In this document: one piece after another, positions 788 to 48,308 of the stretch
How the letters are laid out: every line of letters starts with the position of its first letter
Position numbering within the stretch: the first letter of the stretch is position 1
Source: Candidatus Palauibacter sp.
GTDB taxonomy: Bacteria; Gemmatimonadota; Gemmatimonadetes; Palauibacterales; Palauibacteraceae
Assembly: GCF_965216145.1 (NCBI RefSeq)
Contig: NZ_OZ244149.1
Span: 1,100,797 to 1,164,796 of the forward strand
DNA length: 64,000 nt
Reading direction: 5' to 3'
The notes under the pieces: generated by a model
The model's input: only the letters and a program-made list of their open reading frames with translations
Database searches by the model: none
What the model was told of the DNA's origin: nothing
Made by a program: the position numbers and the translations under genes

Positions 788-3646
788 TCAATGTGCGCCA
801 GGTGGTTTCGCCGCCACGCGCTTCTTCTCCTCCTCCAGCGCGTCCAGCGCGACCCCGTCCGTAATCCACGCCGGCGCCGGCTCGCCCTTCAGGTAGTGCC
901 CGAACCACTCCAGGATGCGCCGGTGGTAGTCCTTCTGGTTCGCCTCCTCTCGGAAACCGTGGTCCTCCCCTTCGTAGACCAGCAGCACCATCTGTTTCCC
1001 GGCGCGGCGGGCGAAGTTGAAGAACTCGGTCCCCTGGTCCCAGTCCACCACGCCATCCTCGTCGCCGAAGGCCATCAGCAGCGGCGTCTCCATGTTGTGC
1101 ACCTCGTGGATCGGCGAATTACGACGATGCGCCTCCGGATCCTCCCAGAACGGCACCTCCATGCGAGCCTGGCCGGTCTCCCAGTGGCTCAGCTCGGCGA
1201 TGCCCGGGTTCCAGTGCAGCGCGCCCATGAAGCTCACGAAGTCCGTGAGCGGCGCGCCCGCCACGGAAGCCGCGAAGATGTCGGTCCGCGTGGGCAGGAA
1301 CGTCGCCTGATAGCCGCCCCACGAGTGCCCGATGAGGCCGACCGCGTCCGGGTCCGTCACCCCCATCTCGACGGCCTTCGCCACGGCCGCGCGCACGGAC
1401 TCCAGCGCACTTACGCCCGGATCCCGCGCCCGGTATACGATGTCCGGCAGCAGCACCGCGTACCCATGCTGGGTCCAGGCCGTGTAGTTGTAGTACTCCC
1501 GCTCGCTGGGCACGCGGAAGAGGTGCATCTGCGGGGAGAGGATCTCGTAGGTGTACACGATCGTGGGGACCGCGCTGTCCTCCTCGTAGTTCGCGGGAAG
1601 AAGGAGGACGAACTGAAGGTCGCGGCCCGATTCGCTCACGAAGTCGACCAGCTCCGCCCGGCCCCACGCCACCTCGTCGATGAAGGGGTTGATCGCGGTC
1701 ACCCGGGCGGGGTTGGCGAGGTCGGGGCCGGCGACGAAGTAGTCCGGCGGGTCGTCGAAGCGTTCGTCGCGGTAGAAGAGCACGTCGGCGCTGTCGGCGC
1801 GGACGAGGCCACCCACGTAGCCGTCTTCCAGGACAAGGGTCTCGGCCGAGTCCCGGTCGCGCGCGTCGAGCCAGCCGCGGGTGAAGCGGGCATATCCGCG
1901 CTGCTCCGTCTTCTCGTTGTAGAGGGACAGATAGGGGCGCGAGTCGGGGTCGATGCCGGGCTCGTCGTCATCGGTGACGCGGGTCAACCGGTGGGTGATT
2001 CCCGTCTCGGCGCCGCGCGTCAGCCGCTCGCCTCCCGAGCCGTCGGGTGCGACGCGCCAGATGTCGTGCTTGTCGTAGAGCAGGACTGCGTTGTCGTCTT
2101 CCAGCCAGCCGCCGGGACCGGAGTCGCGTGGGGGGGTCACGTCGGTGGGCGTGTCGTAGTCCGTGTCGGCGAATTCGGCGGCCAGCGCTGACGTCAGGTC
2201 ATGCTGCTCGCCCGTGGCGACGTGGAGGCTGTGGTAGGCGGAGCCATCCCATGAGAGCAGCCAGTCGCCGCCCGCGCTTGGCCATTCGTAACGCACGCGA
2301 GCGAGGAGCTGGCGGCGCTCGCCGGTGTCCGCGTCAACGGCCCGGACATCGTGGTACGGACGGCCGAACATCGCGCCCCATGGGTAGGGCTCGTCAATGT
2401 CTTCCAGAGCGTACTCCCAGCCGTGCAGGAGTTGAGCGGTGCCCATGAGGTCGGATCCGAGAACGACCACGCGGTCGTCGTCGAGGTGCCAGACGGCCGG
2501 CAGCGATCGCGTGTTGTCGCGGTCCTCGGAGACCTGCTGCTCCGGGAAGAGGCGGACATCCCCGGTGTGCCAGATCTGCAGGGCGGGGAGGTCGGGTTCG
2601 GAGTCAGAGGCCGGAGCGTCCGGGGAGCCCTGATCCGGTTCCGTCTCCGCCTCCGGCTCCGGCTCGTCTTCCGCGCCGTCGCCGGGATCTTCGTCCTCTT
2701 CCTCTTCGATCGGCCTGAGCCCCAGAGAGATCATGATGCCATCGTCCGACCAGGCGGGGGCGCGGTGCCGGACGGTCTCGAGCGTGTCCGGGATGCCGGC
2801 GGTGTTCGCACCGAGGACCATCATCTCGACACGGCGGTCCAGGCCGCGCCAGGCCAGAACGTCGTAGGCGGTGCCGTCGGCGGAGGCGGCGCCGCTCGAG
2901 CGGAGGGCAGCCAGATCTGCAGAGTCATCACGCCAGCGGAGGCTCCGGTAGGCGGAACCGGAAGCGTCGGCGGAACGCAGGATACCGGCGGAGGCGTCGT
3001 ACACCTGCACGCCGTTGCCCACATCGGTGCCCGTCGCGATGGCGAGTGCAAGAAGGGATCCGGCCGGGCTCCAAGCCATCTCGCTCACGTTGCCGAAGGA
3101 GGTCTCCGTTCCCGTTTCCAGGGTGATGATGCGGAGATCGGCGCCCTTGCCCGAGGGCTCGTCCGGCGGGTAGCCACGCAGCGCCACGAAACGGCCGGAG
3201 GCGTCGAAGCGCTGTTCGGAGACCGCTTCGTACTCACGCGTCTCGCCGAATTGCAGATCCATCACCGAGGCCTTCTCACGGATCGGTTCGTCGCTCTCCT
3301 CGAGCCGCTCCCTTTCCTCCGGCGGTAGACCGATGGTCCAGGTCAGCCAACGGCCATCGGGGGAGAACCGCGGCGCCGAGCCCCATGGGAAGATCCGAAC
3401 GGAGTCCTCTTCGAGCTTCCGCACGCGGAGTTCCGACTTCTCGTCCACCCGGGTGACCACGTATGCGATCCACTCACCGAAGGGAGAGAACTCGAAGCCG
3501 CCGAGTCGCTCCCAGCGGCCGTAGTCGTCGGGAGTGACGAGGGGGCGGTCCTGGGAGTAGGCGGGGGACGGGAGGACGAGCGTGAGACCGCCAAGGGCAG
3601 CCAGTGTCGCGAGCGTCGGGAAACGGGAGGGGAGGGACCAGGTCAT
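788..3646 (-). CDS. secreted S9 family serine peptidase (TolB-like beta-propeller N-terminal, prolyl-oligopeptidase-type C-terminal)
   Basis: Signal peptide MTWSLPSRFPTLATLAALGGLTLVLP. C-terminal alpha/beta-hydrolase region with GLIGHSWGGYQ (GxSxGG nucleophile elbow). Acidic low-complexity insert EEEEDEDPGDGAEDEPEPEAETEPD. Confidence 0.8.
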   Translation of the reverse strand: MTWSLPSRFPTLATLAALGGLTLVLPSPAYSQDRPLVTPDDYGRWERLGGFEFSPFGEWIAYVVTRVDEKSELRVRKLEEDSVRIFPWGSAPRFSPDGRWLTWTIGLPPEERERLEESDEPIREKASVMDLQFGETREYEAVSEQRFDASGRFVALRGYPPDEPSGKGADLRIITLETGTETSFGNVSEMAWSPAGSLLALAIATGTDVGNGVQVYDASAGILRSADASGSAYRSLRWRDDSADLAALRSSGAASADGTAYDVLAWRGLDRRVEMMVLGANTAGIPDTLETVRHRAPAWSDDGIMISLGLRPIEEEEDEDPGDGAEDEPEPEAETEPDQGSPDAPASDSEPDLPALQIWHTGDVRLFPEQQVSEDRDNTRSLPAVWHLDDDRVVVLGSDLMGTAQLLHGWEYALEDIDEPYPWGAMFGRPYHDVRAVDADTGERRQLLARVRYEWPSAGGDWLLSWDGSAYHSLHVATGEQHDLTSALAAEFADTDYDTPTDVTPPRDSGPGGWLEDDNAVLLYDKHDIWRVAPDGSGGERLTRGAETGITHRLTRVTDDDEPGIDPDSRPYLSLYNEKTEQRGYARFTRGWLDARDRDSAETLVLEDGYVGGLVRADSADVLFYRDERFDDPPDYFVAGPDLANPARVTAINPFIDEVAWGRAELVDFVSESGRDLQFVLLLPANYEEDSAVPTIVYTYEILSPQMHLFRVPSEREYYNYTAWTQHGYAVLLPDIVYRARDPGVSALESVRAAVAKAVEMGVTDPDAVGLIGHSWGGYQATFLPTRTDIFAASVAGAPLTDFVSFMGALHWNPGIAELSHWETGQARMEVPFWEDPEAHRRNSPIHEVHNMETPLLMAFGDEDGVVDWDQGTEFFNFARRAGKQMVLLVYEGEDHGFREEANQKDYHRRILEWFGHYLKGEPAPAWITDGVALDALEEEKKRVAAKPPGAH

Positions 3647-3846
3647 CGGGCACTCTCCTGGGAGTCGCTGGAATTGGGGAAAGCAAGTTGCGTGGTGCTG
3701 GGGGACAATCGCCAGCGGGTGCCTCGGTTGGACCTCACGTGGGACGTGCGCCCCACTTGCCACGCGATCGGGTTCGGACGGGGCGTATGCGCAGGGGACG
3801 GTGCTTCACCGACTCCACCCGGGCACATGCCCCGCTTCCATTCCCG

Positions 3847-5265
3847 CTATTGCTGCAGGCGCAGCACGAAGAGGCCCTCGTTCCAGCTCGTGGCGACGAA
3901 GAAGCCGCTCTCGAAGTAGGGGTAGGTCGACCAGGAGCCGCGGAACTCCACGTTATTGTGTTCGGGCACGGTGTCAAAATAGCCCGCTTCCACGGGGTTC
4001 TCTCGGTCCGAGATGTCGATGATCCGGATGCCGAATGTGTAGTTGGAGTGGTAGATCACATCCTCGTGCACGTACAGGTTGTGGTCGATAGCTTCGGTGG
4101 GCCCCAGGTGCTCTCTCGCCAGAACCGGATCGTCGAGGTCGGTTAGATCCCAAACGAGCAGCCGCGTCCGCGAGACAGAGAACCCCTCATCGAGTTCATC
4201 GTTCTGATAGAAGTACTGGTGGTCCTCGCTGAGCCACCCCTGATGGATGTAGGCGTGATCGGCGTATGTACCGGTTGAGATGGTGATCGGGTTCTCCTTG
4301 TCGGTCACGTCCGACACTACAATGGCGGTCTCGTTCGAGCCGACGCAGATTTCCTGGCCCGCGTATTCCGAATCGGGGCCGCGATACACGACGCACTGAA
4401 CGTCGTGGGTGTAGCCTGGAATATAAAAACCCGTCGTCGTTTCAGCGTAGCAGCCCGCGAAAGTCGGATTCTTCGGGTCCGAGAGATCGATCATGTGCAG
4501 GCCGCTCCCGCATGTGTCGCCGCCACTGTTGCTACCGACGGCATAGGCGAAGCCGGTCTCTTCGTTGATCGCGATGTTGTGGACCGAACTCAGCCGCGAG
4601 TACCACGCATCGGGCTGCAACTCGGTGAACTCCGTCAACCCGCGCAGCCGTGTGAGGTCGAGAACCTGCATACCGTGGCCGGGGCTCAGGTCGGCGACGA
4701 CGTACACGTGATCCGCGTACACCTTCATGTCGCGCCACCACGAGGTACCCGTGTGCGAGGCGAGGTACGCGATCGGTCGCGGCTCGACCGGATTGGAGAG
4801 ATCGACAATGGAAAGTCCGTCGTGGCGGCCCACAAGAGCATACTCCACCCCGGTCTGAGGGTCGGTCCACCCCCAAATGTCGTTCACGTTCCACCACTCT
4901 TCCGGCCCCGAGGGCGGCGTCCCCGGTCTCAAGTCAGGCATGGATACCTGTCCCACGAGATCGACCCCCTCGCACGGAAAGCTGCCGGCCAGCCCATCGA
5001 CGCATATTGCCTCCGGGGCGACTGGAGGTGGCGGCGGTGGAGGTGGCGGCGGTGGAGGTGGCGGCGGTGGAGGTGGCGGCGGTGGAGGTGGCGGCGGTGG
5101 TGGTGGCGGCGGTGGAGGTGGCGGCGGCGGCTCGACGGGATCGGGGCCCGCGGGACCTGGGCCGGTCGGAGCCGGGGCGTCTTCACCGCATGCACCAAGG
5201 GCCACACTCAGCATGAGTACCGGAATCGCCGGTCGGATTCGCATAGAGGATGAATGGGCTCTCAT
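3847..5265 (-). CDS. choice-of-anchor B / LVIVD-repeat beta-propeller lipoprotein, paralog 1, with ~44-residue polyproline linker
   Basis: Lipoprotein-like leader MRAHSSSMRIRPAIPVLMLSVALGAC. SD GGGAGG 8 nt upstream of the ATG at 5263-5265. Conserved NDIWGWTDP, VYADHVYVVAD, YAVGSNSGG, HQGW motifs shared with the paralogs at 5425, 6933 and 31237. Confidence 0.75.
   Translation of the reverse strand: MRAHSSSMRIRPAIPVLMLSVALGACGEDAPAPTGPGPAGPDPVEPPPPPPPPPPPPPPPPPPPPPPPPPPPPPPPPPPPPVAPEAICVDGLAGSFPCEGVDLVGQVSMPDLRPGTPPSGPEEWWNVNDIWGWTDPQTGVEYALVGRHDGLSIVDLSNPVEPRPIAYLASHTGTSWWRDMKVYADHVYVVADLSPGHGMQVLDLTRLRGLTEFTELQPDAWYSRLSSVHNIAINEETGFAYAVGSNSGGDTCGSGLHMIDLSDPKNPTFAGCYAETTTGFYIPGYTHDVQCVVYRGPDSEYAGQEICVGSNETAIVVSDVTDKENPITISTGTYADHAYIHQGWLSEDHQYFYQNDELDEGFSVSRTRLLVWDLTDLDDPVLAREHLGPTEAIDHNLYVHEDVIYHSNYTFGIRIIDISDRENPVEAGYFDTVPEHNNVEFRGSWSTYPYFESGFFVATSWNEGLFVLRLQQ
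5024..5130. repeat. 15-bp tandem repeat (GGTGGAGGTGGCGGC)n, about 7 units, encoding poly-Pro on the minus strand
   Basis: Direct reading of the sequence. It is in-frame within the paralog-1 CDS. The plus-strand poly-Gly ORF here is an antisense artifact. Confidence 0.9.
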
Positions 5266-5424
5266 CTGACTATGCCTCCCGTCAACTGGAACGACGATCC
5301 GACGCACGAGTTGCTGCGGGTCGACGCGGTTTCGACGTAGATCTTGCGACCCAACCACCGTCGTACGTGCAACTTACACGTTTAGGCCTCTCCCTCGCGC
5401 CCCTAAACTGGAGGGGACTTGTCG
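5266..5424. repeat. ~160-bp intergenic cassette, copy A (near-identical to 6775..6932)
   Basis: Carries hairpins CCCCTAAACTGGAGGGG and ACGTGTAAGTTGCACGT. It lies downstream of paralog 2 and upstream (promoter/RBS side) of paralog 1. Confidence 0.85.
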
Positions 5425-6774
5425 CTATTGCTGCAGGCGCAGGACGAAGATGCCCTCACGCCAACTGGTGGCGACGAAGAGGCCGCTCTCGAACCAGGGG
5501 TAGATCGACCAGGAGCCGAATCCGCGAGGTTCGGGCACGGTGTCGAAGAACCCGCGTTCCAGGGGGTTCGCAGGATCCGCGATATCTATGACCCGGACTC
5601 CGAAGTCATAGTTGGAGTGGTAGATCAGGTCGCCGTGGACATACAGGTTGTGGTCGGTCTCGGTGCCCGGGCCCAGATGCTCCTTCGCCAGGATCGGGTC
5701 ATCGAGGTCGGTGAGGTCCCACACGAGCATGCGCGTGCGCGGTGTCAGCCCTTGAGCCTCGTCCCCTTCGTCGTTCTGGTAGAAATAGCCCTGGTCTGAG
5801 CTGAGCCAGCCCTGGTGGACGTAGCCATAGTCCGCGTACGTAGCGGTCGACAGGGTGATCGGATTCGTCTTGTCGGTCACGTCCGACACCACAATGGCGA
5901 TCTCGTTCGAGCCGACGCAGATCTCGCGGCCCGCATGTTCCGTATCAGGACCGCGATACACGACGCACTGGACATCGTGGGTGTAACCCGTACCGACCCA
6001 CCCGGTGCCTTCTACGGCGTGGCACCCCGCGAAACTCGGATTCTTCGGGTCCGTGAGGTCGATCATGTGCAGACCACCCCCGCACGTGTCGCCGCCGGAG
6101 TTGCTCCCGACGGCGTAGGCGAAGCCTGTCTCTTCGTTGATCGCGACGTTGTGGACCGCGCTCACGCGCGTGTACCGCCCGTCCGCCTGCATCTCCGTGA
6201 ACTCCGTCAGCCCGCGAAGTCGGGTAAGGTCGAGAATCTGCATGCCGTGGCCGGCTATGGCGTCGGCGACGACGTATACGTGGTCCGCGTACACTTTCAT
6301 GTCGCGCCAGATGCTCGAACCGGTATGGGAAGCGAGGTACGCGATCGGCCGGGGTTCGACGGGGTTCGAGAGATCGACGATCGAGAGTCCGTCATCGCGG
6401 CCGACGAGGGCGTACTCGACCCCCGTCTCCGGGTCGGTCCACCCCCAAATGTCGTTCAGGACAGAGGCCGGCCGCGCCGGTCTCAAGTCGCTCGGCGACA
6501 CGCGTGCCACCAGATCTACGCCATCGCACGGAAAGATGCCGGCAAGGCCACCGACACATGGTGTCTCTGTGGTGGGGAGCGGCGGTGGAGGCGGCGGTGG
6601 GGGAGGCGGCGGGGGCGGCGCGGGGGGAGGCGGCGGTGGCGCAAGCGTGGGCGGGGCGAGCGGATCCGGGGTCACCGGGCCCGCAGCGTCCTCTCCGCAT
6701 GCGCCGAGGACCACGCTCAGCATGAGTACCGGAATCGCCGGTCGGATTCGCATAGAGGATGAATGGGCTCTCAT
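5425..6774 (-). CDS. choice-of-anchor B / LVIVD-repeat lipoprotein, paralog 2 (Pro-rich linker)
   Basis: Same leader MRAHSSSMRIRPAIPVLMLSVVLGAC and the same motif set, roughly 75-80% identical to paralog 1. Linker is PPPPPPAPPPPPPPPPPPPPLP. Confidence 0.75.
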   Translation of the reverse strand: MRAHSSSMRIRPAIPVLMLSVVLGACGEDAAGPVTPDPLAPPTLAPPPPPPAPPPPPPPPPPPPPLPTTETPCVGGLAGIFPCDGVDLVARVSPSDLRPARPASVLNDIWGWTDPETGVEYALVGRDDGLSIVDLSNPVEPRPIAYLASHTGSSIWRDMKVYADHVYVVADAIAGHGMQILDLTRLRGLTEFTEMQADGRYTRVSAVHNVAINEETGFAYAVGSNSGGDTCGGGLHMIDLTDPKNPSFAGCHAVEGTGWVGTGYTHDVQCVVYRGPDTEHAGREICVGSNEIAIVVSDVTDKTNPITLSTATYADYGYVHQGWLSSDQGYFYQNDEGDEAQGLTPRTRMLVWDLTDLDDPILAKEHLGPGTETDHNLYVHGDLIYHSNYDFGVRVIDIADPANPLERGFFDTVPEPRGFGSWSIYPWFESGLFVATSWREGIFVLRLQQ

Positions 6775-6932
6775 CTGACCATGCCTCCCGTCAACTGGAA
6801 CGACGATCCGACGCAGGAGTTGCTGCGGATCGACGCGGTGTCGACGTAGATCTTGCGACCCAACCACCGTCGTACGTGCAACTTACACGTTTAGGCCTCT
6901 CCCTCGCGCCCCTAAACTGGAGGGGACTGTCG
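6775..6932. repeat. ~160-bp intergenic cassette, copy B
   Basis: Aligns almost base for base with 5266..5424 (a handful of substitutions). Confidence 0.85.
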
Positions 6933-8219
6933 CTATTGCTGGAGTCGCAGGACGAAGAGGCCCTCGTCCCGGCTGGTGGCGACGAAGAGGCCGCTCTCGA
7001 ACCAGGGGTAGGTCGACCAGGAGCCGCCGAACGTCTGGTCGTCATGGTCCGGTACCGTGTCGAAGAAGCCGCGCTCCACGGGATTCGCCGGATTCGAGAT
7101 GTCGAGGATCCGCACGCCGAACGTGTAGTTGGAGTGGTAGATCACATCCTCGTGGACGTAGATGTTGTGGTCGATGGCTCCGGTGGGGCCCAGGTGCTCC
7201 GTGACGAGGACCGGATCGTCCAGATCGACCATGTCCCATACCAGCATGCGCGTGCGTGAGACCCGGTTGTTTCTTTCATCCCCTTCATCGTTCTGGTAGA
7301 AATACCGGTGATCCTCGCTCAGCCATCCCTGATGGATGTAGTCGTGGTCGGCGTAGGAGGCGGTCGACAACGTCGTCGGGTTCGCCTTGTCGGTCACGTC
7401 CGACACGACGACCGCGGTCTCATTCGAGCCCACGCAGATCTCGCGGCCCGCGTGTTCCGCGTCGGGACCTCGATAGACGACGCACTGGACATCGTGGGTG
7501 TATCCAGTCCCATGCCAACCGGTGCCTGCCTCGGCGTGGCAACCCGCGAAGGTAGGGTTCTTCGGATCCGAGAGGTCGATCATGTGCAGGCCGCCCCCGC
7601 ACGTTTCGCCACCGGAGTTGCTTCCGACGGCGTACGCGAAGCCGGTCTCTTCGTTGATCGCGAGGTTGTGGACAGCGCTCACATTCCGGTATCTGGCGTC
7701 CGCGCTCAGTTCCGTGAACTCAGTCAACTCACGAAGCCGCGTGAGGTCGAGCACCTGGATCCCGTGCCCCGTAATCTCCGAGACGACGTACACGTGATCC
7801 GCATACACTTTCATGTCCCGCCAGAGGGTCTCCGAGAAGGCGGAGGGCATGAACGCGACCGGCCTCGGTTCGACCGGGTTGGAGAGATCGACGATCGAGA
7901 GGCCGTCGAAGTGCCCGACGAGGGCGTACTCCACCCCCGTCTGCGGATCGGTCCACCCCCAGATGTCGTTCAGGGAGGTGGCCATCCTTCCCGGCCGCAA
8001 CTCGCGCGGAAGCAGCCACCCCACCAGGTCCACGCCCTCGCACGGGAACCCGCGGGCCGTGCCGCCCTGGCAGGGGGCGAGCAGCGTGGCGACGGGTTCG
8101 GGCGGCGGCGGTTCCGGCGGATCGACCGGACCCGTCGCGCTTTCGCCGCACGCCACCGAGAGAAAAGCCAGCAGGAGAGTCGCGCCTCGCACCGAGGCGG
8201 GGATGCGCTTGGCAGTCAT
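6933..8219 (-). CDS. choice-of-anchor B / LVIVD-repeat lipoprotein, paralog 3 (short Pro linker)
   Basis: Leader MTAKRIPASVRGATLLLAFLSVACGES, then the conserved domain. The ORF-track N-terminal extension (to 8702) is Arg/Gly-rich junk that overlaps the upstream gene. Start taken at the ATG at 8217-8219. Confidence 0.7.
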   Translation of the reverse strand: MTAKRIPASVRGATLLLAFLSVACGESATGPVDPPEPPPPEPVATLLAPCQGGTARGFPCEGVDLVGWLLPRELRPGRMATSLNDIWGWTDPQTGVEYALVGHFDGLSIVDLSNPVEPRPVAFMPSAFSETLWRDMKVYADHVYVVSEITGHGIQVLDLTRLRELTEFTELSADARYRNVSAVHNLAINEETGFAYAVGSNSGGETCGGGLHMIDLSDPKNPTFAGCHAEAGTGWHGTGYTHDVQCVVYRGPDAEHAGREICVGSNETAVVVSDVTDKANPTTLSTASYADHDYIHQGWLSEDHRYFYQNDEGDERNNRVSRTRMLVWDMVDLDDPVLVTEHLGPTGAIDHNIYVHEDVIYHSNYTFGVRILDISNPANPVERGFFDTVPDHDDQTFGGSWSTYPWFESGLFVATSRDEGLFVLRLQQ

Positions 8220-8242
8220 CTGTTCGACATCCTCCCGTCCCC

Positions 8243-9397
8243 TCAATTCGTCAGCAGCAGCCGCGGCCCGAGGAGTCGGTGCGGGTCGGCGTCCGGCTTC
8301 GGGCTGAACTTGTTGATCCAGCCCCCGCTGTACGACGCGATGTACAGATTCCCATCCTCGTCCATGTCGAGTTGGTGCGGCAGCGACAGCCCGCCCGGCC
8401 AGGTACCGCGGCCGATCGCACCCGCCTGCCCGTAGGCGCCCCAGTAATCCTGGAGGACGCCATCCCGGTCGTACTTGAGCACGCGGTTCAGGCTCGCGTC
8501 CAGGACCCACACGGCGCCGTTCACATCCAGCCAGATGTTCACGGGATCGAAAATGTTCGGCCACTCCTCGATGAACTCCCCGTCGTGCGTGAACAGCTGA
8601 AGGCGCTCGTTCTGGCGGTCCGCGACGTAGACCCGGTCTTCGTCCACTGCGAGACCGTGCAGAAGATCGAACTCGCCGGGCCCTGTACCGAGCGCGCCCC
8701 ATTGCATGACGAACTCACCGTCCTCCGAGTACTTGACGATGCGCGAGTTCCAGTACCCGTCGGCGAGCAGGAAGCTCCCGTCCGGCAGGAACGCCAGCTT
8801 CGACGGCCACCCATAAGTATAAGGGTCCCAGTCGGATCGCGCGCGCGCGGCCTCTCGCGTCTTGGGATGGTCCCGCTCGCCCAGGCGCATGACGATCTCG
8901 CTGCCGTCGTTCGTGAACTTGACGACCTGCATGTGCCCCTGCCCGCCGCCGCTGTCGATCACCCACACGTGGCGGTCGGGGTCGTAGGGGCTGATGTACG
9001 CCTGGTGCGGCAGCGTGAAGATCGAGTCCCACTGCGCCCACTGTTCGACGATCTCGCCGTTCCCGTTCGCGACGACGACGAAGTTCGTCCGGCGGATCTG
9101 TCCGTTGCGGGGGGCCGAGCGGTCGGCGGGCCAGTCGCCGCGGGTGACGACGATGATGCGGTCCGCGTGGTCCACGGCCACTCCGGCCACCTGCCCCCAG
9201 CCCCACTCGTCGTCGTGATTGGGCGCGGGCTTCCACCAGCCCTCGACGGGGTCGTAGGCGCCGGTGCGGTCGTCGCCGCCCTTCACAGTCGTCGCGTTCG
9301 CCGGGTTCGCGGCCCGGCCTTCTTCGCCGCACGCCCAGGAGGCGGCCACGGCCGCCGCCCCGATCGCGACGAGGAGCGTCAGCGGGCGAGTCTTCAT
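8243..9397 (-). CDS. NHL-repeat (six-bladed beta-propeller) lipoprotein
   Basis: MKTRPLTLLVAIGAAAVAASWAC lipobox. Repeated blade motifs (VAVDxxDRIIVVTRG, VYVADRQNERLQLF, LYIASYSGGWINKF) typical of NHL / PAL-like propellers. Confidence 0.65.
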   Translation of the reverse strand: MKTRPLTLLVAIGAAAVAASWACGEEGRAANPANATTVKGGDDRTGAYDPVEGWWKPAPNHDDEWGWGQVAGVAVDHADRIIVVTRGDWPADRSAPRNGQIRRTNFVVVANGNGEIVEQWAQWDSIFTLPHQAYISPYDPDRHVWVIDSGGGQGHMQVVKFTNDGSEIVMRLGERDHPKTREAARARSDWDPYTYGWPSKLAFLPDGSFLLADGYWNSRIVKYSEDGEFVMQWGALGTGPGEFDLLHGLAVDEDRVYVADRQNERLQLFTHDGEFIEEWPNIFDPVNIWLDVNGAVWVLDASLNRVLKYDRDGVLQDYWGAYGQAGAIGRGTWPGGLSLPHQLDMDEDGNLYIASYSGGWINKFSPKPDADPHRLLGPRLLLTN

Positions 9398-11442: not shown

Positions 11443-12866
11443 CGGGCGCCGCTCCCGCCGGGGGCCGCCCCGCCCGCGAAGTCGAGCGGCAAGGCACCGT
11501 CGCTGTCACCGAACGTGCTCAACTCCGGGTGTCCGATCTTCCGCATCAGGCTCACGAACGCGTTCGCCATCGGCGTCCCGTCGGGAGCCCGATGGTGCAC
11601 ACCCCCCTCCAGCGCGCCGTTCGCCCCGCCCAGGAAGAGGAGAGGCGCCCTCCGGTGGTTGTGGAGGTTCCCATCGGCCATCGGAGAGCCCCAGACGATC
11701 GCCGTCCTGTCGAGCAGCGACGCGTCGCCTTCCACGGTGCCGCCCAGCTTCTCGAGGAAGTAGGCGAGTTGGCCCAGCCGATAGGTGTTGATCCGGTTGA
11801 AGTCCATGATGTCCTCGGGGACGTTGCCGTGGTGCGAGGCCCCGTGGACGGACTTCGTCGTCCCGCTGTCGGGAAAAGCCCGGTTCGACTGATCGAACCC
11901 GGTCTTGAAGGTGATGACCCGCGTCAGATCGGTCTGCAGCGCGAGCAACTGCAGATCGAACATGAGCCGCATGTGTTCCTCGAAGGAGTCGGGGATCCCG
12001 GACGGCGCCTCCGGCATCTCCCGCTCCTCACCGCTCGCGTTGCGCGCCTCGACGAGCTGGATCCTGCGCTCGATCTCGCGGATATGGTCGATATACTCGT
12101 CCAGCGCGATCCGGTCCGCCGAGCCGAGCGCACTCCTGAGCCGCGCGACCTCGGTGGCGATCCAGTCGATCATGCTGCGGTCGGTGCGGCGGCGCGCCGC
12201 GCGATCCGCGGCGGTGTCGCCCGCCCCGAACAGCCGCTCGAAGACGACGCGCGGCTCCCGGATCGCCGGGAGCGGCAGGTCGGGCGAGGCCCACGCGAGC
12301 GAGGTCGTGTAGGCGCAGTGGTAGTTGTACGCGCAGCCGCCGCCCCGATCGATCCCCTCGATGCACAGTTCCAGCGACGGGAGCACCGTCTCCTGCCCGA
12401 AGCGTTGCGCGTGCAGCTGGTCGAGCGAAGTCCCGAGGTAGATGTCGGACCCCTGCGTCTGCTTCGGGTGCGCCTGGGTGAGGAACACCGCCGTCGAGCG
12501 GTCGTGGTCCCCGCCGATCTCCTCCGCGCGCGAGGCCTCGGCCGAGCGGCAGTCCGTGTTGCTGACGATCGTCATGTACCCGCGGAACGCCTCCAGCGGC
12601 TTGAGCTGGCTGTCCGCCACGAGTTCGAAGTCCCGGCCGGTCGTCCCCGGTGCGAACAGGTGCCGGGCGTCGCCCCAGTCGCTCGAGCCCGCCGCCCCCA
12701 TCGACTCCTCGACGCAGACCAGGCGCGTGAAGTTCGCGGCCTTCATCGGGTCGGCCCACAGCCGCCCTGCGGGAATCATCGCATCGAGAAGGGGCAGGGC
12801 CACGCTGGCGCCGGCGCCACGCAGGAAGGTGCGACGCGAGAGGTGTGTGCCGGTGACGAAGTTCAT
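11439..12866 (-). CDS. DUF1552 family protein with Tat signal
   Basis: N-terminus MNFVTGTHLSRRTFLRGAGASVALPLLDAMIP (twin-arginine motif). Family signature regions GGDHxRS, GGCAYxY, HHGN. It is the standard partner of DUF1592-family proteins. Confidence 0.7.
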   Translation of the reverse strand: MNFVTGTHLSRRTFLRGAGASVALPLLDAMIPAGRLWADPMKAANFTRLVCVEESMGAAGSSDWGDARHLFAPGTTGRDFELVADSQLKPLEAFRGYMTIVSNTDCRSAEASRAEEIGGDHDRSTAVFLTQAHPKQTQGSDIYLGTSLDQLHAQRFGQETVLPSLELCIEGIDRGGGCAYNYHCAYTTSLAWASPDLPLPAIREPRVVFERLFGAGDTAADRAARRRTDRSMIDWIATEVARLRSALGSADRIALDEYIDHIREIERRIQLVEARNASGEEREMPEAPSGIPDSFEEHMRLMFDLQLLALQTDLTRVITFKTGFDQSNRAFPDSGTTKSVHGASHHGNVPEDIMDFNRINTYRLGQLAYFLEKLGGTVEGDASLLDRTAIVWGSPMADGNLHNHRRAPLLFLGGANGALEGGVHHRAPDGTPMANAFVSLMRKIGHPELSTFGDSDGALPLDFAGGAAPGGSGAR

Positions 12867-15394
12867 GATCCAGCTCCTTCTGTCATTCTGCTCTCATTCT
12901 CTCGACTCTCACCCTCTCGACTCGCGCCCTCTCGGCTCGCGTCCCCCTGCTCGTCCACGACGGGCTGGGGGCGCACCATCCGGAACGCGTCGCTGTTCAC
13001 GACGCCGAAGATGAACGAGGACATCCGGTAGTCGTCCGCTTCCGCTTCCCGCGCGATCGCCCGGATCCCCGGTTCGTCGAAGTACTCCACGCGCCGCCCG
13101 ATCGCGTACGCCAAGAGGTGCGACGCGAAGTTCCGGACGAGCGGAATCGGCCGCTTCATCAGCACGTCGACAAGATCGGCCGGCGTGCTCACGTCCGTCC
13201 CGTCGTAGAAGGTGCCGCGCGTGTCGAGCGGGACGCCGTTCTCGCGGATCCGCACCTGTCCCGTCACGTCGTAGTTGTCGAGCGCGAGGCCGATCGGGTC
13301 CATGAAGCGGTGACAGGAGCGACACGTCGGATTCGCCCGGTGCATCTCCAGCCGTTCGCGGGTCGTGAGCAGCCGCCCACCTCGCGCCGATTCCGTGTCA
13401 TCGAAGGCGGGGATGTTGGGCGGCGGCGGCGGCGGCGGAGTACCCATGAGCACCTCCATCACCCACTTGCCTCGCAGCACCGGCGAGGTCCGCGCCGACA
13501 TGGACGTGAGGAGCAGCACGCTCCCGTGCCCCAGCACCCCGCGCCGGCTTTCGTCCGGGTAGGACACGCGCCGGAACCCGGGCCCCGAGACCCCCGGAAT
13601 CCCGTAGTGAGCCGCGAGCCGCTCGTTCAGGAAGGTGTAGTCCGCAGTGAACAGTTCCAGCAGGCTCCGATCCTCGCGCACGAGCCGGTCGAACAGGAGT
13701 TGCGTCTCCCGCACCAGATCTTCGCGCAGCTGCCCCGTGAAGTCCGGGTACAGGTAGGGCTCCGGCTGGTTGTCTTCCGCGTCCTGCAGCCGCAGCCACT
13801 GCGAGGCGAAGCGCGTCGACAGCGCCTCCGCGCGCGGGTCCGCCAGCATGCGGCGCACCTGAGCTTCGAGGACCGCGGGGTCCGAGAGCCGGCCGTCCGC
13901 GGCGAGGTCGAGCAGTTCATCGTCCGGGATCGTCGCCCAGAGGAAGAAGGAGAGCCGTGTCGCGAGATCGAGGTCCGAGATCGCGTAGCTCTCGTCGCCG
14001 GCCACACCCTCTGGAGCCCGCTCGAGGCGGAAGATGAACGACGGGCTGGCGAGAATCGCCTGCAGCGCCGTCCGGACCCCGACCTCGAAGCCTTCCTCCG
14101 CCGCAGCCCCGTCGTAGAACGACATCGGCCCGGCGATATCCTCCTCCGTGACCGGCCTCCGGTACGCCTCGCGCGCGAGGCGCGTGACGATCTCCGTCGC
14201 GCAGGCACGCGCCTCCCCGGAAGCCGCCGATGCGGGCCGGGCGGGACGGCAGCTGAAGAGCGTGCGGCGGCTCGCCGTCTCGGAGAGCCCCGCGGTGCGC
14301 CGCGGGCCCGTGATCATCAGCTCGCTCAAGTGCGGAAGCGCCGTGATCCCGTAGTTCGCCCACGACTGCGAGTCTTCCCCTCCCACGAACGACCAGCCCG
14401 GCGTCTTCAGGCGGTCCTCGTACGGCCCCTCGATCGTCCGCACGAACGCGGCCGCGATCTGCCGCTGGCCCGCCCGCACGAAGATCGGCTCGGTCCGGAT
14501 CGGGTAGGTCGAGCGGCTTCCGTGCTCGAGGCCGAGCAGCGCGACTCCCTCGCCGTCGATCGAGATGTCGACATCCTGGAAGCCGGTCCCCTGGCCGAAG
14601 AGCGTCTCGATCGTGAACACGTACTCCCCGTCGACCGGGAAGTCGTGCGTCACGACGATCCCTCCGCGGGTCCCGTACGGCGTGCCCTCGAGATGATCCC
14701 AGGCGTGCTGCGAGACTTCGATCGGGTTCGTGTATTTCGCCGAACGCGACAGGGCGTCGGGGTTGCCGACCGCGAGCCGGCTCACCTCGGTGGCAGCCCG
14801 CAGGTACGCTTCGAGCAGCGTAGTCGAGAGGCCCTGCGCGTCGGACATGTTGTCGAAGGCGCCCAGATACGTGTCCGCCGGGAGCCAGCGGCCGGCGTCG
14901 ATCTCGAGGTCGAGGAGGTCGCGGATGACGCGCTCGTACTCGGCCCGGTTCAAGCGCTGGAAGCGCCGCGCGCCGGGGTTCGGATCGTGTGCGGCCGCGC
15001 GGTCTACCACCGTCTCCAGCGTCTCGACGAGCGCCAGAAGCGTGTCCGGAGACGGTCGACGCTGGCCCGGCGGCGGCATCATCCCCGCACGCAGCTTGCG
15101 GATCATCTTTTCGGCGGTGGGCGCTCGCTCGTGCGCCGCGTCCACATCGAACGTCTCCAGCGTGAGGTTTCCCCGCAGCAGGCGCTCGTTGTGACAGCGC
15201 ACGCAGTACCGCTGGACAACATCGGTGAGGTCGGCGAAGGCGGGGGTCGGCGTCGGCGGGGTGGCGTCGACGTGTCCGGTCACGATCTGCGGCGGTCGCG
15301 CGACGGGCGCGACATCGGGCGCACGGCTCTCCGACGGCCCGCCCGCAACGGCAAGCCAGAACCACAGGATCGCGCCCACACTCAATGACTTCAT
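12863..15394 (-). CDS. DUF1592/DUF1587/DUF1595/DUF1588/DUF1585 multidomain protein with cytochrome-c-like CxxCH motif (PSCyt-type)
   Basis: Signal MKSLSVGAILWFWLAVAG. CVRCHN heme-binding-like motif followed by RKLRAGMMPP. Paired with DUF1552 as in Planctomycetes, Verrucomicrobia and Gemmatimonadota genomes. Start taken at the internal ATG (15392-15394) rather than the track's 15442. Confidence 0.7.
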   Translation of the reverse strand: MKSLSVGAILWFWLAVAGGPSESRAPDVAPVARPPQIVTGHVDATPPTPTPAFADLTDVVQRYCVRCHNERLLRGNLTLETFDVDAAHERAPTAEKMIRKLRAGMMPPPGQRRPSPDTLLALVETLETVVDRAAAHDPNPGARRFQRLNRAEYERVIRDLLDLEIDAGRWLPADTYLGAFDNMSDAQGLSTTLLEAYLRAATEVSRLAVGNPDALSRSAKYTNPIEVSQHAWDHLEGTPYGTRGGIVVTHDFPVDGEYVFTIETLFGQGTGFQDVDISIDGEGVALLGLEHGSRSTYPIRTEPIFVRAGQRQIAAAFVRTIEGPYEDRLKTPGWSFVGGEDSQSWANYGITALPHLSELMITGPRRTAGLSETASRRTLFSCRPARPASAASGEARACATEIVTRLAREAYRRPVTEEDIAGPMSFYDGAAAEEGFEVGVRTALQAILASPSFIFRLERAPEGVAGDESYAISDLDLATRLSFFLWATIPDDELLDLAADGRLSDPAVLEAQVRRMLADPRAEALSTRFASQWLRLQDAEDNQPEPYLYPDFTGQLREDLVRETQLLFDRLVREDRSLLELFTADYTFLNERLAAHYGIPGVSGPGFRRVSYPDESRRGVLGHGSVLLLTSMSARTSPVLRGKWVMEVLMGTPPPPPPPNIPAFDDTESARGGRLLTTRERLEMHRANPTCRSCHRFMDPIGLALDNYDVTGQVRIRENGVPLDTRGTFYDGTDVSTPADLVDVLMKRPIPLVRNFASHLLAYAIGRRVEYFDEPGIRAIAREAEADDYRMSSFIFGVVNSDAFRMVRPQPVVDEQGDASREGASREGESRENESRMTEGAGS

Positions 15395-16037
15395 GCGCCG
15401 CCCTTCGAGAAGCCGGGGTGCGCCGGAATGCGCTTCAGCCAATTAACTTAGGAAAAAGAACATCCCGCCGGGAGGGGCTTCGTGGCCAGCAGGCTCGGTC
15501 AACTGGCTTGCCGCGAGCGCCCCTCCACCCGGTAGTCGCTGAGCCGGCACGAGTGCCTCTGCGGCATCGCGATGCGTGTGCTGGAGCCGCTCCACCCGAC
15601 AACCCGAGGGAGCGAGACCGGAGGCTGCCTGGGGGTTGTTGCTGGTCCCTGCGAAGCCTTATGCCAATTCAAAATGAGACTTTCAATTGGCATAGGCCGA
15701 CACAGGGGCACCGACACTCCCATGATTGCTCGAGATCTCGCGCCGGTGAACAGTCATCCTGAGATCCAGAGCTAGCGCCTCCACTGTTCCGGCGCGGGGA
15801 TGCCGCGAGAGATCAGGATCTCGAGGTCCGCCGCGTCCCGCAGCACCGATGCGATGGCGCCGGGGTCGGCCGCGACGCCTGCGAGGGTTCCGAGATGACC
15901 CCCTCCGGGCGCGGAGAGTTCAATCGCCTTCAGCCTGGCCGCCCATGCGGATGACACCGGGAGCGTGAAGGCGAATCCCGATCCTCCGTCGCCGTCCGCC
16001 ACCTCCTGCATGGGAGCCACCTCGGTCTCGACATGGG

Positions 16038-34031: not shown

Positions 34032-34185
34032 GCGCTTCACCGAAGCTCCTCCCCGTCTTCGCACATCCGGCTCACTGCCGATCGTTCGCCCCACTCCTCC
34101 GTCTTGATAGCGGGATGCTTCCGGACCGGACCCTGCGCTGGACCCTTTTGCGCTCTCTGGAAGAATCGCGGAGAGAGGGGCCGGC

Positions 34186-34257
34186 GGGGGCGGTACTGGT
34201 GTACCCGGTGCGGGCTTGACACTCAACCGGCGGGGTTCGATTCCCCGCGCCTCCACC
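34186..34257 (+). other. tRNA-like element 1 (canonical T-arm and 7-bp acceptor with G3:U70 and discriminator A, ends CC; non-canonical anticodon region)
   Basis: CGGGG-TTCGATT-CCCCG T-arm. Acceptor GGGGGCG / CGCCTCC. D-like hairpin GTAC-TGGT-GTAC. Middle hairpin CCGGT / ACCGG with a 16-nt loop instead of a 7-nt anticodon loop. Coordinates +/-2. Confidence 0.35.
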
Positions 34258-34280
34258 TTCCCCTCGAACGGAGGGTCGGC

Positions 34281-34353
34281 GGGGACGGTACTGGTGTACC
34301 CGGTTCCGGACTTGACACCCAACCGGCGGGGTTTGATTCCCCGCGCCTCCACC
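34281..34353 (+). other. tRNA-like element 2 (diverged tandem copy of element 1; T-loop TTTGATT; one acceptor mismatch)
   Basis: Same architecture 24 nt downstream of element 1. The 13-nt leaders preceding the two elements are also similar. Confidence 0.3.
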
Positions 34354-34402
34354 TATCCCTCTACGTTTCAACCTATTGCGGGCTCGCGGATCCGTAAAGC
34401 AG

Positions 34403-48205: not shown

Positions 48206-48308
48206 GGCCGAGGCCTCTTCCAGGCAGCCGTGTCGCGCCCCCTAGGGACGCAAGGGTACACCGCGTGAAAATGTACCATCGACGCGGATCGCCCGGCCAG
48301 CCGTCCTG

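What the first reader, a model, noticed from the sequence alone, without database searches (positions are those of the whole stretch)
5024..5130. 15-bp tandem DNA repeat encoding an uninterrupted polyproline run of about 44 residues
(GGTGGAGGTGGCGGC)n on the plus strand is in frame as (Pro)n in the minus-strand lipoprotein. Such a long consecutive-proline run would stall ribosomes strongly and should depend heavily on EF-P. At the DNA level the perfect 15-bp repeat is a slipped-strand or recombination hotspot that would change linker length in 5-residue steps. The three tandem paralogs already show three different linker lengths, consistent with ongoing length variation. A rigid PPII stalk would set the distance of the propeller domain from the membrane anchor.
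Basis: partly seen in the sequence, partly recalled or inferred. Interest (0 to 1): 0.6.

Follow-up and report, generated by a model that had tools for sequence, protein, structure and literature searches.

The report
Length-variable polyproline stalk in a lipoprotein
A marine Gemmatimonadota bacterium (Candidatus Palauibacter) encodes a membrane-anchored propeller protein whose tether is 36 prolines in a row, written as a 15-base DNA repeat whose copy number differs between strains; the run is far longer than any in E. coli or B. subtilis, but it belongs to a known kind of repeat-encoded spacer.

Summary
The repeat is real, but the count is wrong. Window 5023-5130 (minus strand) holds 36 consecutive Pro codons, not about 44, as seven copies of CCGCCGCCACCTCCA (five perfect).

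The tract lies in the 61-residue linker between a lipoprotein signal peptide (lipobox LGAC, Cys26) and a seven-bladed choice-of-anchor B (TIGR04312) beta-propeller. The organism is a Candidatus Palauibacter sp.

Length variation is confirmed. Four contigs from conspecific strains have nearly identical flanks but carry 22 Pro (three contigs) or P11-A-P12 (one contig). One of them has a propeller-coding body identical to the window's over 1176 nt.

The tandem paralogues have linkers of 61, 46 and 25 residues. Among 268 relatives the longest Pro run is 11.

The tract uses no CCC codon, against 37% in the window background. Fourteen of 14 other long polyproline tracts from metagenomes show the same bias. 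Those tracts run to 30-70 Pro in bacterial exported proteins, so the case is rare but not unique.

All five public gene calls start after the tract.

Best reading: an extended spacer whose length is loosely constrained and mutates quickly. EF-P dependence, localisation and adaptive tuning are untested.

The parts
5023..5130 (-). 36 consecutive proline codons (residues 46-81 of g1), encoded as a 15-bp minisatellite. The unit is CCGCCGCCACCTCCA on the coding strand and GGTGGAGGTGGCGGC on the + strand. There are seven copies, five of them perfect.
   Evidence: TRF: period 15, 7.0 copies, 97% matches, score 203. Codon list CCG15/CCA15/CCT6/CCC0. Longest single-base run is 2. Alleles of 22, 24 and 36 residues occur in conspecific contigs.
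5188..5265 (-). Signal peptide of g1, MRAHSSSMRIRPAIPVLMLSVALGAC, with lipobox L-G-A-C. The Cys26 codon is at 5188-5190. A GGGAGG Shine-Dalgarno-like motif lies 9 nt upstream of the ATG at 5265.
   Evidence: Sequence reading. The Cys is invariant in 65/65 aligned homologues and the preceding Ala is nearly invariant. The same start is conserved in L001-L004. Lipidation itself is inferred.
5005..5187 (-). Full 61-residue linker between the lipidated Cys and the first Cys of the propeller domain: GEDAPAPTGPGPAGPDPVE-P36-VAPEAI, 70% Pro.
   Evidence: AlphaFold2 gives no helix or strand for residues 1-85, with pLDDT 68-87 over the Pro run.
3847..5004 (-). Choice-of-anchor B / LVIVD-repeat seven-bladed beta-propeller domain of g1, residues 88-472 plus the stop codon.
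   Evidence: TIGR04312 E = 5.6e-131, 437 bits against a cut-off of 100. Pfam LVIVD. AF2 mean pLDDT 88.3. Best solved match is 5HRM, the Sphingobium phosphotriesterase propeller.
5266..5424 (-). Upstream intergenic region of g1. Together with the signal-peptide codons it forms a 5' module of about 240 bp that is 93-98% identical to the one in front of g2 (6775-6932), while the gene bodies are about 78% identical.
   Evidence: Sliding identity on the MAFFT alignment of the three repeat units.
5425..6774 (-). Paralogue g2 (449 aa). It has the same signal peptide and a 46-residue linker with P6-A-P13 (Pro codons at 6580-6639). That tract has no tandem unit and contains CCC codons and a C6 run.
   Evidence: Its length is unchanged between the window and L002. 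L004 has one extra C in the C-run, which frameshifts the gene.
6933..8219 (-). Paralogue g3 (428 aa). It has a different signal peptide (…LLLAFLSVAC) and a 25-residue linker, GESATGPVDPPEPPPPEPVATLLAP.

Best explanation
Gene g1 (3847-5265, minus strand) encodes an exported, N-terminally lipid-anchored protein. A run of 36 prolines forms most of the 61-residue tether between the anchoring cysteine and a seven-bladed choice-of-anchor B propeller.

The run most likely adopts an extended polyproline-II conformation. At about 0.31 nm per residue that gives about 11 nm for P36 against about 7 nm for the common P22 allele. It would then act as a stiff, protease-resistant spacer that holds the propeller away from the membrane.

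At the DNA level the run is an in-frame 15-bp minisatellite. It changes length by replication slippage or unequal recombination. The window carries a recent expansion, from two to five perfect units at the 3' side.

Linker length in this family is only loosely constrained, so such changes are tolerated. The codon mix (CCG/CCA/CCT, no CCC) leaves no single-base run longer than 2. Slippage therefore changes length but not frame, and the codons that are slow and +1-frameshift-prone in E. coli are avoided.

Shown: the repeat, the reading frame, domain identity, the polymorphism and the codon bias.

Inferred: lipidation, PPII conformation, spacer function, the slippage mechanism and a need for EF-P.
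For: - Repeat and frame.
- Lipoprotein signal: Cys invariant in 65/65 homologues.
- Domain identity: TIGR04312 at 437 bits. Confident propeller model with a coil-like Pro run at pLDDT 68-87.
- The family is exported: Rhodothermales and Bacteroidota relatives carry a T9SS sorting tail instead of a lipobox.
- Spacers vary widely in the family: 16-36-residue linkers, or one to three Big_2 domains of 100-278 aa. The paralogues have 61, 46 and 25 residues.
- Polymorphism: 36 Pro in the window; 22 Pro in L001, L003 and L004; P11-A-P12 in L002. There is at most 1 SNP in the 131 nt upstream and at most 1 in the 120 nt downstream, and all length differences are multiples of 3.
- Window against L002: 0 substitutions in 1176 nt of propeller-coding DNA, yet the tracts differ by 12 codons.
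- L002 and L004 come from one metagenome assembly, so two alleles co-occur in one sample.
- Internal control: g2's non-repetitive Pro tract keeps its length across strains.
- Codon bias: 0/36 CCC against 354/948 in the window background; CCA+CCT 21/36 against 61/948.
- The same bias appears in 14/14 other long polyproline tracts.
- In E. coli, CCG and CCA are decoded faster, and CCC/CCU are slower and +1-frameshift-prone (PMC12856214).
Against: - No read-level data, so the seven-copy allele rests on one assembly.
- Three of the five strains share an identical 22-Pro allele. The tract is therefore not hypermutable on every lineage.
- The organism is uncultured, and there is no expression, lipidation or localisation evidence.
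- All five public gene calls start downstream of the tract.
- Polyproline is not a perfectly rigid rod, because of cis-proline kinks (my own knowledge). The quoted lengths are upper bounds.
- Codons inside a repeat are not independent, so the single-locus P values for codon bias are inflated.
Confidence: 0.7

Rival explanations
1. Adaptive stalk-length tuning. Repeat-number variation is maintained by selection as a contingency-like device. It would adjust how far the propeller reaches, through peptidoglycan, an S-layer, capsule or a host matrix. It would act together with the copy-number and cassette variation seen at this locus.
For: - Alleles of 22, 24 and 36 residues, and paralogues of 61, 46 and 25.
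- The tandem array has 1, 3 or 4 copies in different strains and species.
- The propeller body is swapped or strongly diverged (55-85% identity) under a conserved 5' module, both in L009 against L010 and in g1 against g2.
- Other family members use Big_2 domains as longer stalks.
Against: - Three of five strains share exactly the same 22-Pro allele.
- There is no phenotype, no within-clone heterogeneity data and no test of selection.
- The wide spread of linker lengths in the family fits relaxed constraint equally well.
Confidence: 0.2
2. Translational brake. The tract exists mainly to slow or gate translation just as the signal peptide emerges from the ribosome. This would aid targeting, or make the protein's yield depend on EF-P activity or proline supply.
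For: - The run starts at residue 46, about 20 residues after the signal-peptide cleavage site, so the signal peptide would be emerging from the ribosome while the run is made.
- In E. coli, polyproline motifs are enriched near N-termini, in inter-domain linkers and downstream of membrane helices (PMC5811046).
- Consecutive prolines need EF-P (PMC12856214 and PMC13602936).
Against: - The codon choice is the opposite of what a brake would use: no CCC, few CCT, mostly the faster CCG and CCA.
- Paralogue g3 and most relatives work with only 3-4 consecutive prolines or none.
- Length varies from 22 to 36 without any other change.
- A three-proline motif would be enough to cause a pause.
Confidence: 0.1
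3. The tract is not part of a protein. The real gene would start after the tract, as in the public annotations. The tract would then be non-coding simple sequence, an assembly artefact, or the remnant of a decaying gene.
For: - PGAP and Prodigal calls in all five records start after the tract (381, 386 and 364 aa).
- One record calls a 55-aa ORF on the opposite strand.
- No full-length sequence is present among 15 billion proteins.
Against: - The frame is open from a conserved ATG with a GGGAGG motif, through the signal peptide and tract, into the domain in all five alleles.
- All indels are multiples of 3.
- Orthologues and paralogues have the same signal peptide, lipobox and Pro-rich linker architecture, called full-length.
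- The annotated internal starts are ATA and CTG codons or an internal Met, with no signal peptide, for a family that is otherwise exported.
Confidence: 0.05

Closest known systems
Serine-aspartate (SD) repeat stalks of staphylococcal Clf/Sdr adhesins
   Same: A low-complexity stalk encoded by in-frame tandem DNA repeats lies between the cell anchor and a globular functional domain. Repeat number differs between strains (PMC3324548, listed; the minimum stalk length needed for display is my own knowledge).
   Different: The repeat is a Ser-Asp dipeptide rather than homopolymeric proline. The anchor is a C-terminal LPXTG wall anchor in Gram-positives rather than an N-terminal lipid anchor in a diderm. 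SD repeats are glycosylated.
TonB/TolA proline-rich periplasm-spanning spacers
   Same: A Pro-rich segment thought to adopt an extended polyproline-II conformation separates a membrane anchor from a functional domain in a diderm envelope (papers listed; details are my own knowledge).
   Different: TonB uses alternating Glu-Pro and Lys-Pro dipeptides, not pure proline. Its anchor is a transmembrane helix. It is not encoded by a perfect minisatellite, and no comparable strain polymorphism is known to me.
Long-linker lipoproteins whose reach matters (Lpp, LpoB, RcsF)
   Same: These are lipoproteins in which the length of the segment after the lipidated Cys sets how far the functional part reaches across the envelope (my own knowledge).
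   Different: Their linkers are coiled-coil or disordered and of mixed composition. They are not polyproline and not repeat-encoded.
Mycoplasma Vlp-type size-variable lipoproteins
   Same: These are lipoproteins that change size through gain and loss of in-frame tandem repeats, in multi-gene tandem families (my own knowledge).
   Different: The Vlp repeats are 12-13-residue units in the C-terminal region. Expression is also phase-variable through promoter homopolymers. No such on/off element was found here.
Other very long polyproline linkers in environmental bacterial exported proteins (found here)
   Same: These are uninterrupted runs of 30-70 Pro between domains: PKD, Kelch-P46-PASTA, P40-OmpA, P70-GH5, F5/8 type C, Calx-beta-P34-RTX and Big_2-P34-fn3. 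They come from high-GC contigs and show the same avoidance of CCC codons.
   Different: Their DNA periodicity is weaker (82-88% self-match at periods of 18-45), which suggests older tracts. Those examined connect two folded domains or precede a single one (OmpA, GH5), and no lipobox was seen among them. No strain comparison is available for them.

Membership tests
TIGR04312 choice-of-anchor B family (LVIVD-repeat propeller) | Match to the NCBIfam model above its curated cut-off | tested here: met
   437.1 bits against a cut-off of 100, E = 5.6e-131, covering model positions 2-363 of 364. The match starts right after the tract. The paralogues score 403 and 438 bits. Pfam LVIVD is above its gathering score.
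TIGR04312 choice-of-anchor B family (LVIVD-repeat propeller) | The same domain is found with alternative cell-surface anchors in different lineages | tested here: met
   A lipobox here and in Palauibacter relatives. A T9SS type A sorting domain (TIGR04183) at the C-terminus in Rhodothermales and Bacteroidota relatives L006 and L007.
Bacterial lipoprotein (Lgt/LspA substrate) | Positively charged n-region, hydrophobic h-region, and a lipobox ending in an invariant Cys | tested here: met
   MRAHSSSMRIRP / AIPVLMLSVA / L-G-A-C. The Cys is present in 65/65 homologues and the preceding Ala is nearly invariant. No dedicated signal-peptide predictor was available.
Bacterial lipoprotein (Lgt/LspA substrate) | Actual diacylglyceryl modification, and the final location (inner membrane, outer membrane or surface) | not testable with these tools
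   This needs biochemistry. The only lead is a conserved C-G-[E/D] motif after the Cys: +2 is G in 47/65 and +3 is E or D in 59/65.
Coding minisatellite / VNTR stalk | Near-perfect head-to-tail DNA repeats whose unit is a multiple of 3 | tested here: met
   Period 15, 7.0 copies, 97% matches, no indels.
Coding minisatellite / VNTR stalk | Copy-number polymorphism between closely related genomes with conserved flanks and a preserved frame | tested here: met
   Tracts of 108, 66 and 72 nt in five contigs that are 97.4-98.3% identical overall. The flanks differ by 0-1 SNP, and the gene body has 0-6 substitutions in 1176 nt.
Coding minisatellite / VNTR stalk | Repeat-number heterogeneity within one clonal population | not testable with these tools
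   No reads were available. Two alleles co-occur in one metagenome assembly, but on different strain backgrounds.
Phase-variable (on/off) contingency locus | A repeat whose slippage shifts the reading frame or alters a promoter | tested here: not met
   The unit is 15 bp, the longest single-base run in the tract is 2, and all alleles are in frame. No promoter-like repeat was found.
EF-P-dependent polyproline stalling motif | Three or more consecutive prolines | tested here: met
   36 consecutive Pro. For comparison, the maximum is 8 in E. coli and 4 in B. subtilis (PMC13602936).
EF-P-dependent polyproline stalling motif | efp and its modification genes present; stalling relieved by EF-P | not testable with these tools
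   No EF-P homologue lies in the 64-kb window (tblastn with EF-P sequences recalled from memory). EF-P is reported in virtually all bacteria (PMC12856214).
TonB-type proline-rich spacer | Alternating charged X-Pro dipeptide repeats (Glu-Pro, Lys-Pro) | tested here: not met
   The tract is pure proline. Only the short flanks (PDPVE, and PPEPPPPEP in g3) resemble X-Pro spacers. It may work like such a spacer but is not a member of that family.

The most novel reading that the evidence does not exclude
The polyproline minisatellite would be one component of a surface-variation locus. A conserved 5' module (promoter, signal peptide, lipobox) would drive interchangeable propeller cassettes, with the low-complexity linker DNA as the recombination junction. 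Stalk length (22 to 36 Pro), cassette identity and tandem copy number (1, 3 or 4) would all vary between strains of a possibly host-associated bacterium.

In parallel, runs of 30-70 Pro with a CCC-free codon pattern would be an overlooked and systematically mis-annotated class of bacterial linker. That would imply a capacity to translate polyproline far beyond what E. coli and B. subtilis proteomes contain.
Probability: 0.15. Interest if true: 0.65.

Novelty: new member of a known kind. Interest (0 to 1): 0.4.

Why it matters
Reviews of proline translation quote maxima of 8 consecutive prolines in E. coli and 4 in B. subtilis, and call a 20-proline tract artificially long. This locus, and the 30-70-Pro tracts found in other environmental bacteria, are natural genes that go well beyond those figures.

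They also share a codon pattern: CCC is avoided and CCA and CCT are enriched. That pattern is directly testable for its effect on stalling, frameshifting and DNA stability.

The locus is a clean natural series for asking how tether length affects a lipoprotein's function. It offers 22, 24 and 36 Pro on an almost identical protein, plus paralogues with 25- and 46-residue linkers.

There is also a practical point. Gene callers start all five known copies after the tract, so the signal peptide and the polyproline are missing from protein databases. Similar linkers may be under-counted in high-GC genomes.

Tried and rejected
- Exact-flank scan of JGI metagenomes for more alleles: 0 hits.
- The search for related loci in GTDB genomes: only four distant relatives from other phyla, and no Palauibacter.
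- Protein search with the N-terminal 139 residues, to find full-length gene calls or other long polyproline proteins: 65 candidates, none significant.
- Look-up of the 4.3-Mb contig encoding WP_420464336.1, probably the window's source: not on record.
- Exact look-ups of full-length g1 and g2 with three alternative starts: absent from the collection.
- EF-P in the window: none.
- Sigma-70 promoter scan of 3700-8500: no site. The terminator-like hits were not informative.
- Rfam and ARAGORN on the window: nothing at the gathering threshold and no tRNA.
- Opposite-strand polyglycine ORF (4877-5269, +): rejected. It has no homologues, and the minus-strand frame is continuous with a conserved signal peptide and domain.
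- On/off phase variation: rejected. The unit is 15 bp and there are no homopolymer runs.
- G-quadruplex potential of the (GGN)36 template strand. ViennaRNA with G-quadruplexes enabled predicts nine two-tier quadruplexes (-162 against -72 +/- 16 kcal/mol in shuffles). The coding strand has no structure (0.0 kcal/mol). The quadruplex energy terms were not derived for DNA, so I treat this only as a lead.
- Neighbouring S9 peptidase as a possible linker-cleaving enzyme: no support. It gives only sub-threshold family matches, and Pro-Pro bonds generally resist such enzymes (my own knowledge).
- Literature on choice-of-anchor B function: none found.
Full report
**Observation.** Tandem Repeats Finder reports one array at 5023-5127: period 15, 7.0 copies, 97% matches, no indels, score 203. 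Read on the minus strand, every triplet from 5130 down to 5023 is a proline codon. That makes 36 consecutive prolines (CCG 15, CCA 15, CCT 6, CCC 0), not about 44. On the coding strand the tract is CCG + U + U' + 5xU, where U = CCGCCGCCACCTCCA and U' = CCGCCGCCACCACCA. The count was too high by eight, and the repeat is perfect only over its last five copies.

**Gene model.** The tract lies in an ORF that is open from an ATG at 5265 to a stop at 3847, giving 472 aa. A GGGAGG motif lies 9 nt upstream of that ATG. The N-terminus MRAHSSSMRIRPAIPVLMLSVALGAC has a charged n-region, a hydrophobic core and an L-G-A-C lipobox. The Cys is present in 65 of 65 aligned homologues. Residues 88-472 match NCBIfam TIGR04312 (choice-of-anchor B family) at 437 bits against a cut-off of 100, and they match Pfam LVIVD.

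**Fold and export.** An AlphaFold2 model built on 65 homologues has mean pLDDT 88.3 and shows a beta-propeller. Residues 1-85 have no helix or strand, and pLDDT is 68-87 over the proline run. The best solved matches are the propeller of the Sphingobium phosphotriesterase (5HRM) and then seven-bladed WD40 propellers. Relatives in Rhodothermales and Bacteroidota carry a C-terminal T9SS sorting domain instead of a lipobox. The family is therefore exported or cell-surface. The best protein hits are named Candidatus Palauibacter sp., in the Gemmatimonadota. [quoted passage not shown]

**Paralogues and family.** Three paralogues lie in tandem: g1 at 3847-5265, g2 at 5425-6774 and g3 at 6933-8219. 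Their propeller bodies are about 75% identical. Their Cys-to-domain linkers are 61, 46 and 25 residues, with 70%, 57% and 36% Pro. Among the 120 closest database relatives, linkers are 16-36 residues, or else consist of one to three Big_2 domains (100-278 aa). The longest Pro run among them is 11. Among 148 representatives of clusters at 50% identity, 142 have no run of four or more prolines, and the maximum is again 11. In the other 29 probable genes of the window there are only four runs of three or more Pro, and the longest is 7. The P36 run is therefore an outlier both in its family and in its genomic neighbourhood.

**Polymorphism.** Four contigs from conspecific strains, 97.4-98.3% identical to the window, carry the same gene. 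The 131 nt upstream and the 120 nt downstream of the tract each differ by at most one base. The tract itself is 22 Pro in L001, L003 and L004, with identical DNA in all three. It is P11-A-P12 in L002 and 36 Pro in the window. All length differences are multiples of three.

The propeller-coding 1176 nt differ by only 0-6 substitutions among the five contigs. Between the window and L002 they differ by none, although those two tracts differ by 12 codons. L002 and L004 come from the same metagenome assembly.

Relative to the common 22-Pro allele, the window has three extra copies of U at the 3' side. It also has several single-codon indels and one substitution in the 5' part. Both 15-bp and 3-bp slippage steps have therefore occurred. 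As an internal control, g2's Pro tract has no tandem unit, and its length is the same in the window and in L002. The tract is not equally unstable everywhere, however, because three strains share one allele.

**Codon pattern.** In 29 probable genes of the window, Pro codons are CCG 533, CCC 354, CCT 38 and CCA 23. The tract has no CCC at all, and 21 of its 36 codons are CCA or CCT. The consequence is that no single-base run in the 108 nt exceeds 2. By contrast g2's tract has a C6 run, and in L004 that run has gained one C and frameshifts the gene.

I then scanned the JGI metagenomes for (CCN)30. Most of these are poly-C. Thirty-one are mixed-codon tracts (not dominated by CCC or by any single codon), and many of those lie inside ORFs. 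Eight of them were put through Pfam, and all eight are typical bacterial extracytoplasmic proteins: PKD-P32, Kelch-P46-PASTA, P40-OmpA, P70-GH5, P30-F5/8 type C, Calx-beta-P34-RTX, Big_2-P34-fn3 and P44-PASTA.

In 14 of 14 such loci with a usable background, the CCC fraction is lower in the tract than elsewhere on the contig (sign test P = 1.2e-4). In 13 of 14, CCA+CCT is higher. One caveat applies: I excluded tracts with more than 60% CCC as likely poly-C artefacts.

A 2026 review states that in E. coli CCG and CCA are decoded faster, and that CCC and CCU are slower and prone to +1 frameshifting (PMC12856214). The bias is thus general. It fits selection for in-frame, reasonably fast decoding and for avoiding homopolymer slippage.

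**How it most likely works.** The best-supported reading is a spacer: a long, extended, protease-resistant tether between the lipid anchor and the propeller. At the standard polyproline-II rise of about 0.31 nm per residue (my own knowledge), P22 spans about 7 nm and P36 about 11 nm. These are upper bounds, because real polyproline bends. The family tolerates spacers from 16 residues to three Ig-like domains, so length seems loosely constrained. The minisatellite then explains why this one changes quickly.

Translation of 36 consecutive prolines should require EF-P or equivalent factors. Reviews give maxima of 8 in E. coli (amiB) and 4 in B. subtilis, and they call a 20-Pro tract artificially long (PMC13602936 and PMC12856214). 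This could not be tested. No efp lies in the window, and the rest of the genome was out of reach.

**Rivals.**
- Adaptive length tuning is possible but unsupported beyond the polymorphism itself.
- A translational-brake role is suggested by the position of the run, which starts 20 residues after the signal-peptide cleavage site, and by the E. coli statistics (PMC5811046). It fits poorly with the fast-codon choice and with paralogues that lack long runs.
- The idea that the tract is not translated rests only on automatic gene calls. All five records start the gene after the tract, at ATA or CTG codons or at an internal Met, and one record calls a polyglycine ORF on the other strand. The conserved start, the signal peptide, the frame preservation and the full-length orthologues argue against it.

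**Context seen along the way.** The roughly 240 bp comprising the upstream intergenic region and the signal-peptide codons are 93-98% identical between g1 and g2, while the gene bodies are about 78% identical. The drop occurs at the start of the linker. In another Palauibacter species the locus has a single copy. Two strains there are 96-98% identical in the flanks but only 55-85% identical in the propeller body, and the break falls at the polyproline tract. One strain has four copies (L004). In L001 an IS element abuts the middle of g2's Pro tract. The locus is therefore dynamic in several ways, which keeps a surface-variation reading open.

**Comparison and novelty.** Functionally the nearest analogues are repeat-encoded stalks such as the staphylococcal SD repeats, Pro-rich envelope spacers such as that of TonB, and long-linker lipoproteins. 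The locus meets the tests for a coding minisatellite stalk and for a lipoprotein-type signal. It fails the tests for an on/off contingency locus and for a TonB-type X-Pro repeat. It is a new and extreme member of a known kind. The metagenome scan shows that it is rare but not unique.

**Limits.** There are no reads and no expression or localisation data, and only five alleles. The source genome is identified only by inference: the C-terminal 386 residues of g1 equal WP_420464336.1 except for the start residue.

Noticed in passing
window 3847-5265; L001 5782-7146; L002, L003 and L004 equivalents: All five public gene calls for g1 begin after the polyproline tract (381, 386 or 364 aa). They lack the signal peptide. 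In L001 a 55-aa ORF is called on the opposite (polyglycine) strand. No full-length g1 or g2 sequence with any of three candidate starts is present among about 15 billion proteins.
   Followed up: yes
window 5188-5424 against 6697-6932; L009 against L010 around position 7000-8400: A 5' module (intergenic region plus signal-peptide codons) is 93-98% identical between g1 and g2, while the propeller bodies are about 78% identical. In another Palauibacter species, two strains share 96-98% identical flanks but have propeller bodies only 55-85% identical, and the break falls at the polyproline tract. This looks like gene conversion or cassette exchange with a junction in the linker.
   Followed up: partly
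window 3847-8219; L004 1236-7095; L009 and L010 7001-8413; L001 2926-4452: The tandem array varies in copy number: one gene in L009 and L010, three in the window and L002, four in L004. In L001 an IS element (HTH_Tnp_1 plus rve transposase) abuts the middle of g2's Pro tract, and g2's 5' end is gone.
   Followed up: partly
L004 about 4341-4401 (the g2 linker); window 6580-6639: g2's Pro tract contains CCC codons and a C6 run. In L004, a contig at 7x coverage, the run has seven Cs and the gene is frameshifted. This could be a real mutation or a sequencing error, but it illustrates the risk that g1's CCC-free tract avoids.
   Followed up: partly
L018, L048, L062, L069, L070, L080, L098, L101, L120, L126 and others (JGI metagenome contigs): Uninterrupted runs of 30-70 Pro codons occur inside ORFs of bacterial exported multidomain proteins: PKD, Kelch-PASTA, OmpA, GH5, F5/8 type C, Calx-beta/RTX and Big_2/fn3. 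In 14 of 14 loci the tract has a lower CCC fraction than the rest of the contig, and in 13 of 14 it has more CCA+CCT.
   Followed up: partly
window 3850-5004 (g1 body) against 788-3646 (S9 peptidase): The g1 propeller-coding DNA differs by only 0-6 substitutions in 1176 nt among five strains. The adjacent DNA is 1-2.3% diverged. This could reflect strong constraint or recent spread of this gene among strains.
   Followed up: no
window 3850-5004; alignment A2: The nearest solved structure is the binuclear-metal phosphotriesterase propeller of Sphingobium (5HRM). The family alignment has many invariant His, Asp and Glu residues (for example H197, H229, H257, H287-D288, H341, D356-E357, D394-H395). 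The propeller may therefore be a metalloenzyme rather than a binding module.
   Followed up: no
window 5176-5187 and homologues: The residues after the lipobox Cys are conserved as C-G-[E/D]: +2 is Gly in 47/65 and +3 is Glu or Asp in 59/65. This may be a lipoprotein sorting or surface-export signal in this lineage.
   Followed up: no
window 34178-34359: There are two tandem units of about 96 bp, each folding like a tRNA (a canonical T-arm GGGGTTCGATTCCCC plus an acceptor-like end CCTCCACC). ARAGORN calls no tRNA. Rfam gives only sub-threshold matches to tRNA-like families (mascRNA at 33.9 bits, permuted tmRNA at 27.8 bits).
   Followed up: partly
window 13419-13438 and 46197-46218: Two large paralogous genes (about 12866-15442 and 45707-48241, minus strand) each sit next to a DUF1552/HXXSHH-type gene. 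Each contains a P7 run after the identical peptide PVLRGKWVMEVLMGT.
   Followed up: no
window 5023-5130, + strand: The template strand is (GGN)36. ViennaRNA with G-quadruplexes enabled predicts nine stacked two-tier quadruplexes, whereas the C-rich mRNA has no predicted structure. This might add to repeat instability, but the energy model is not calibrated for DNA.
   Followed up: partly
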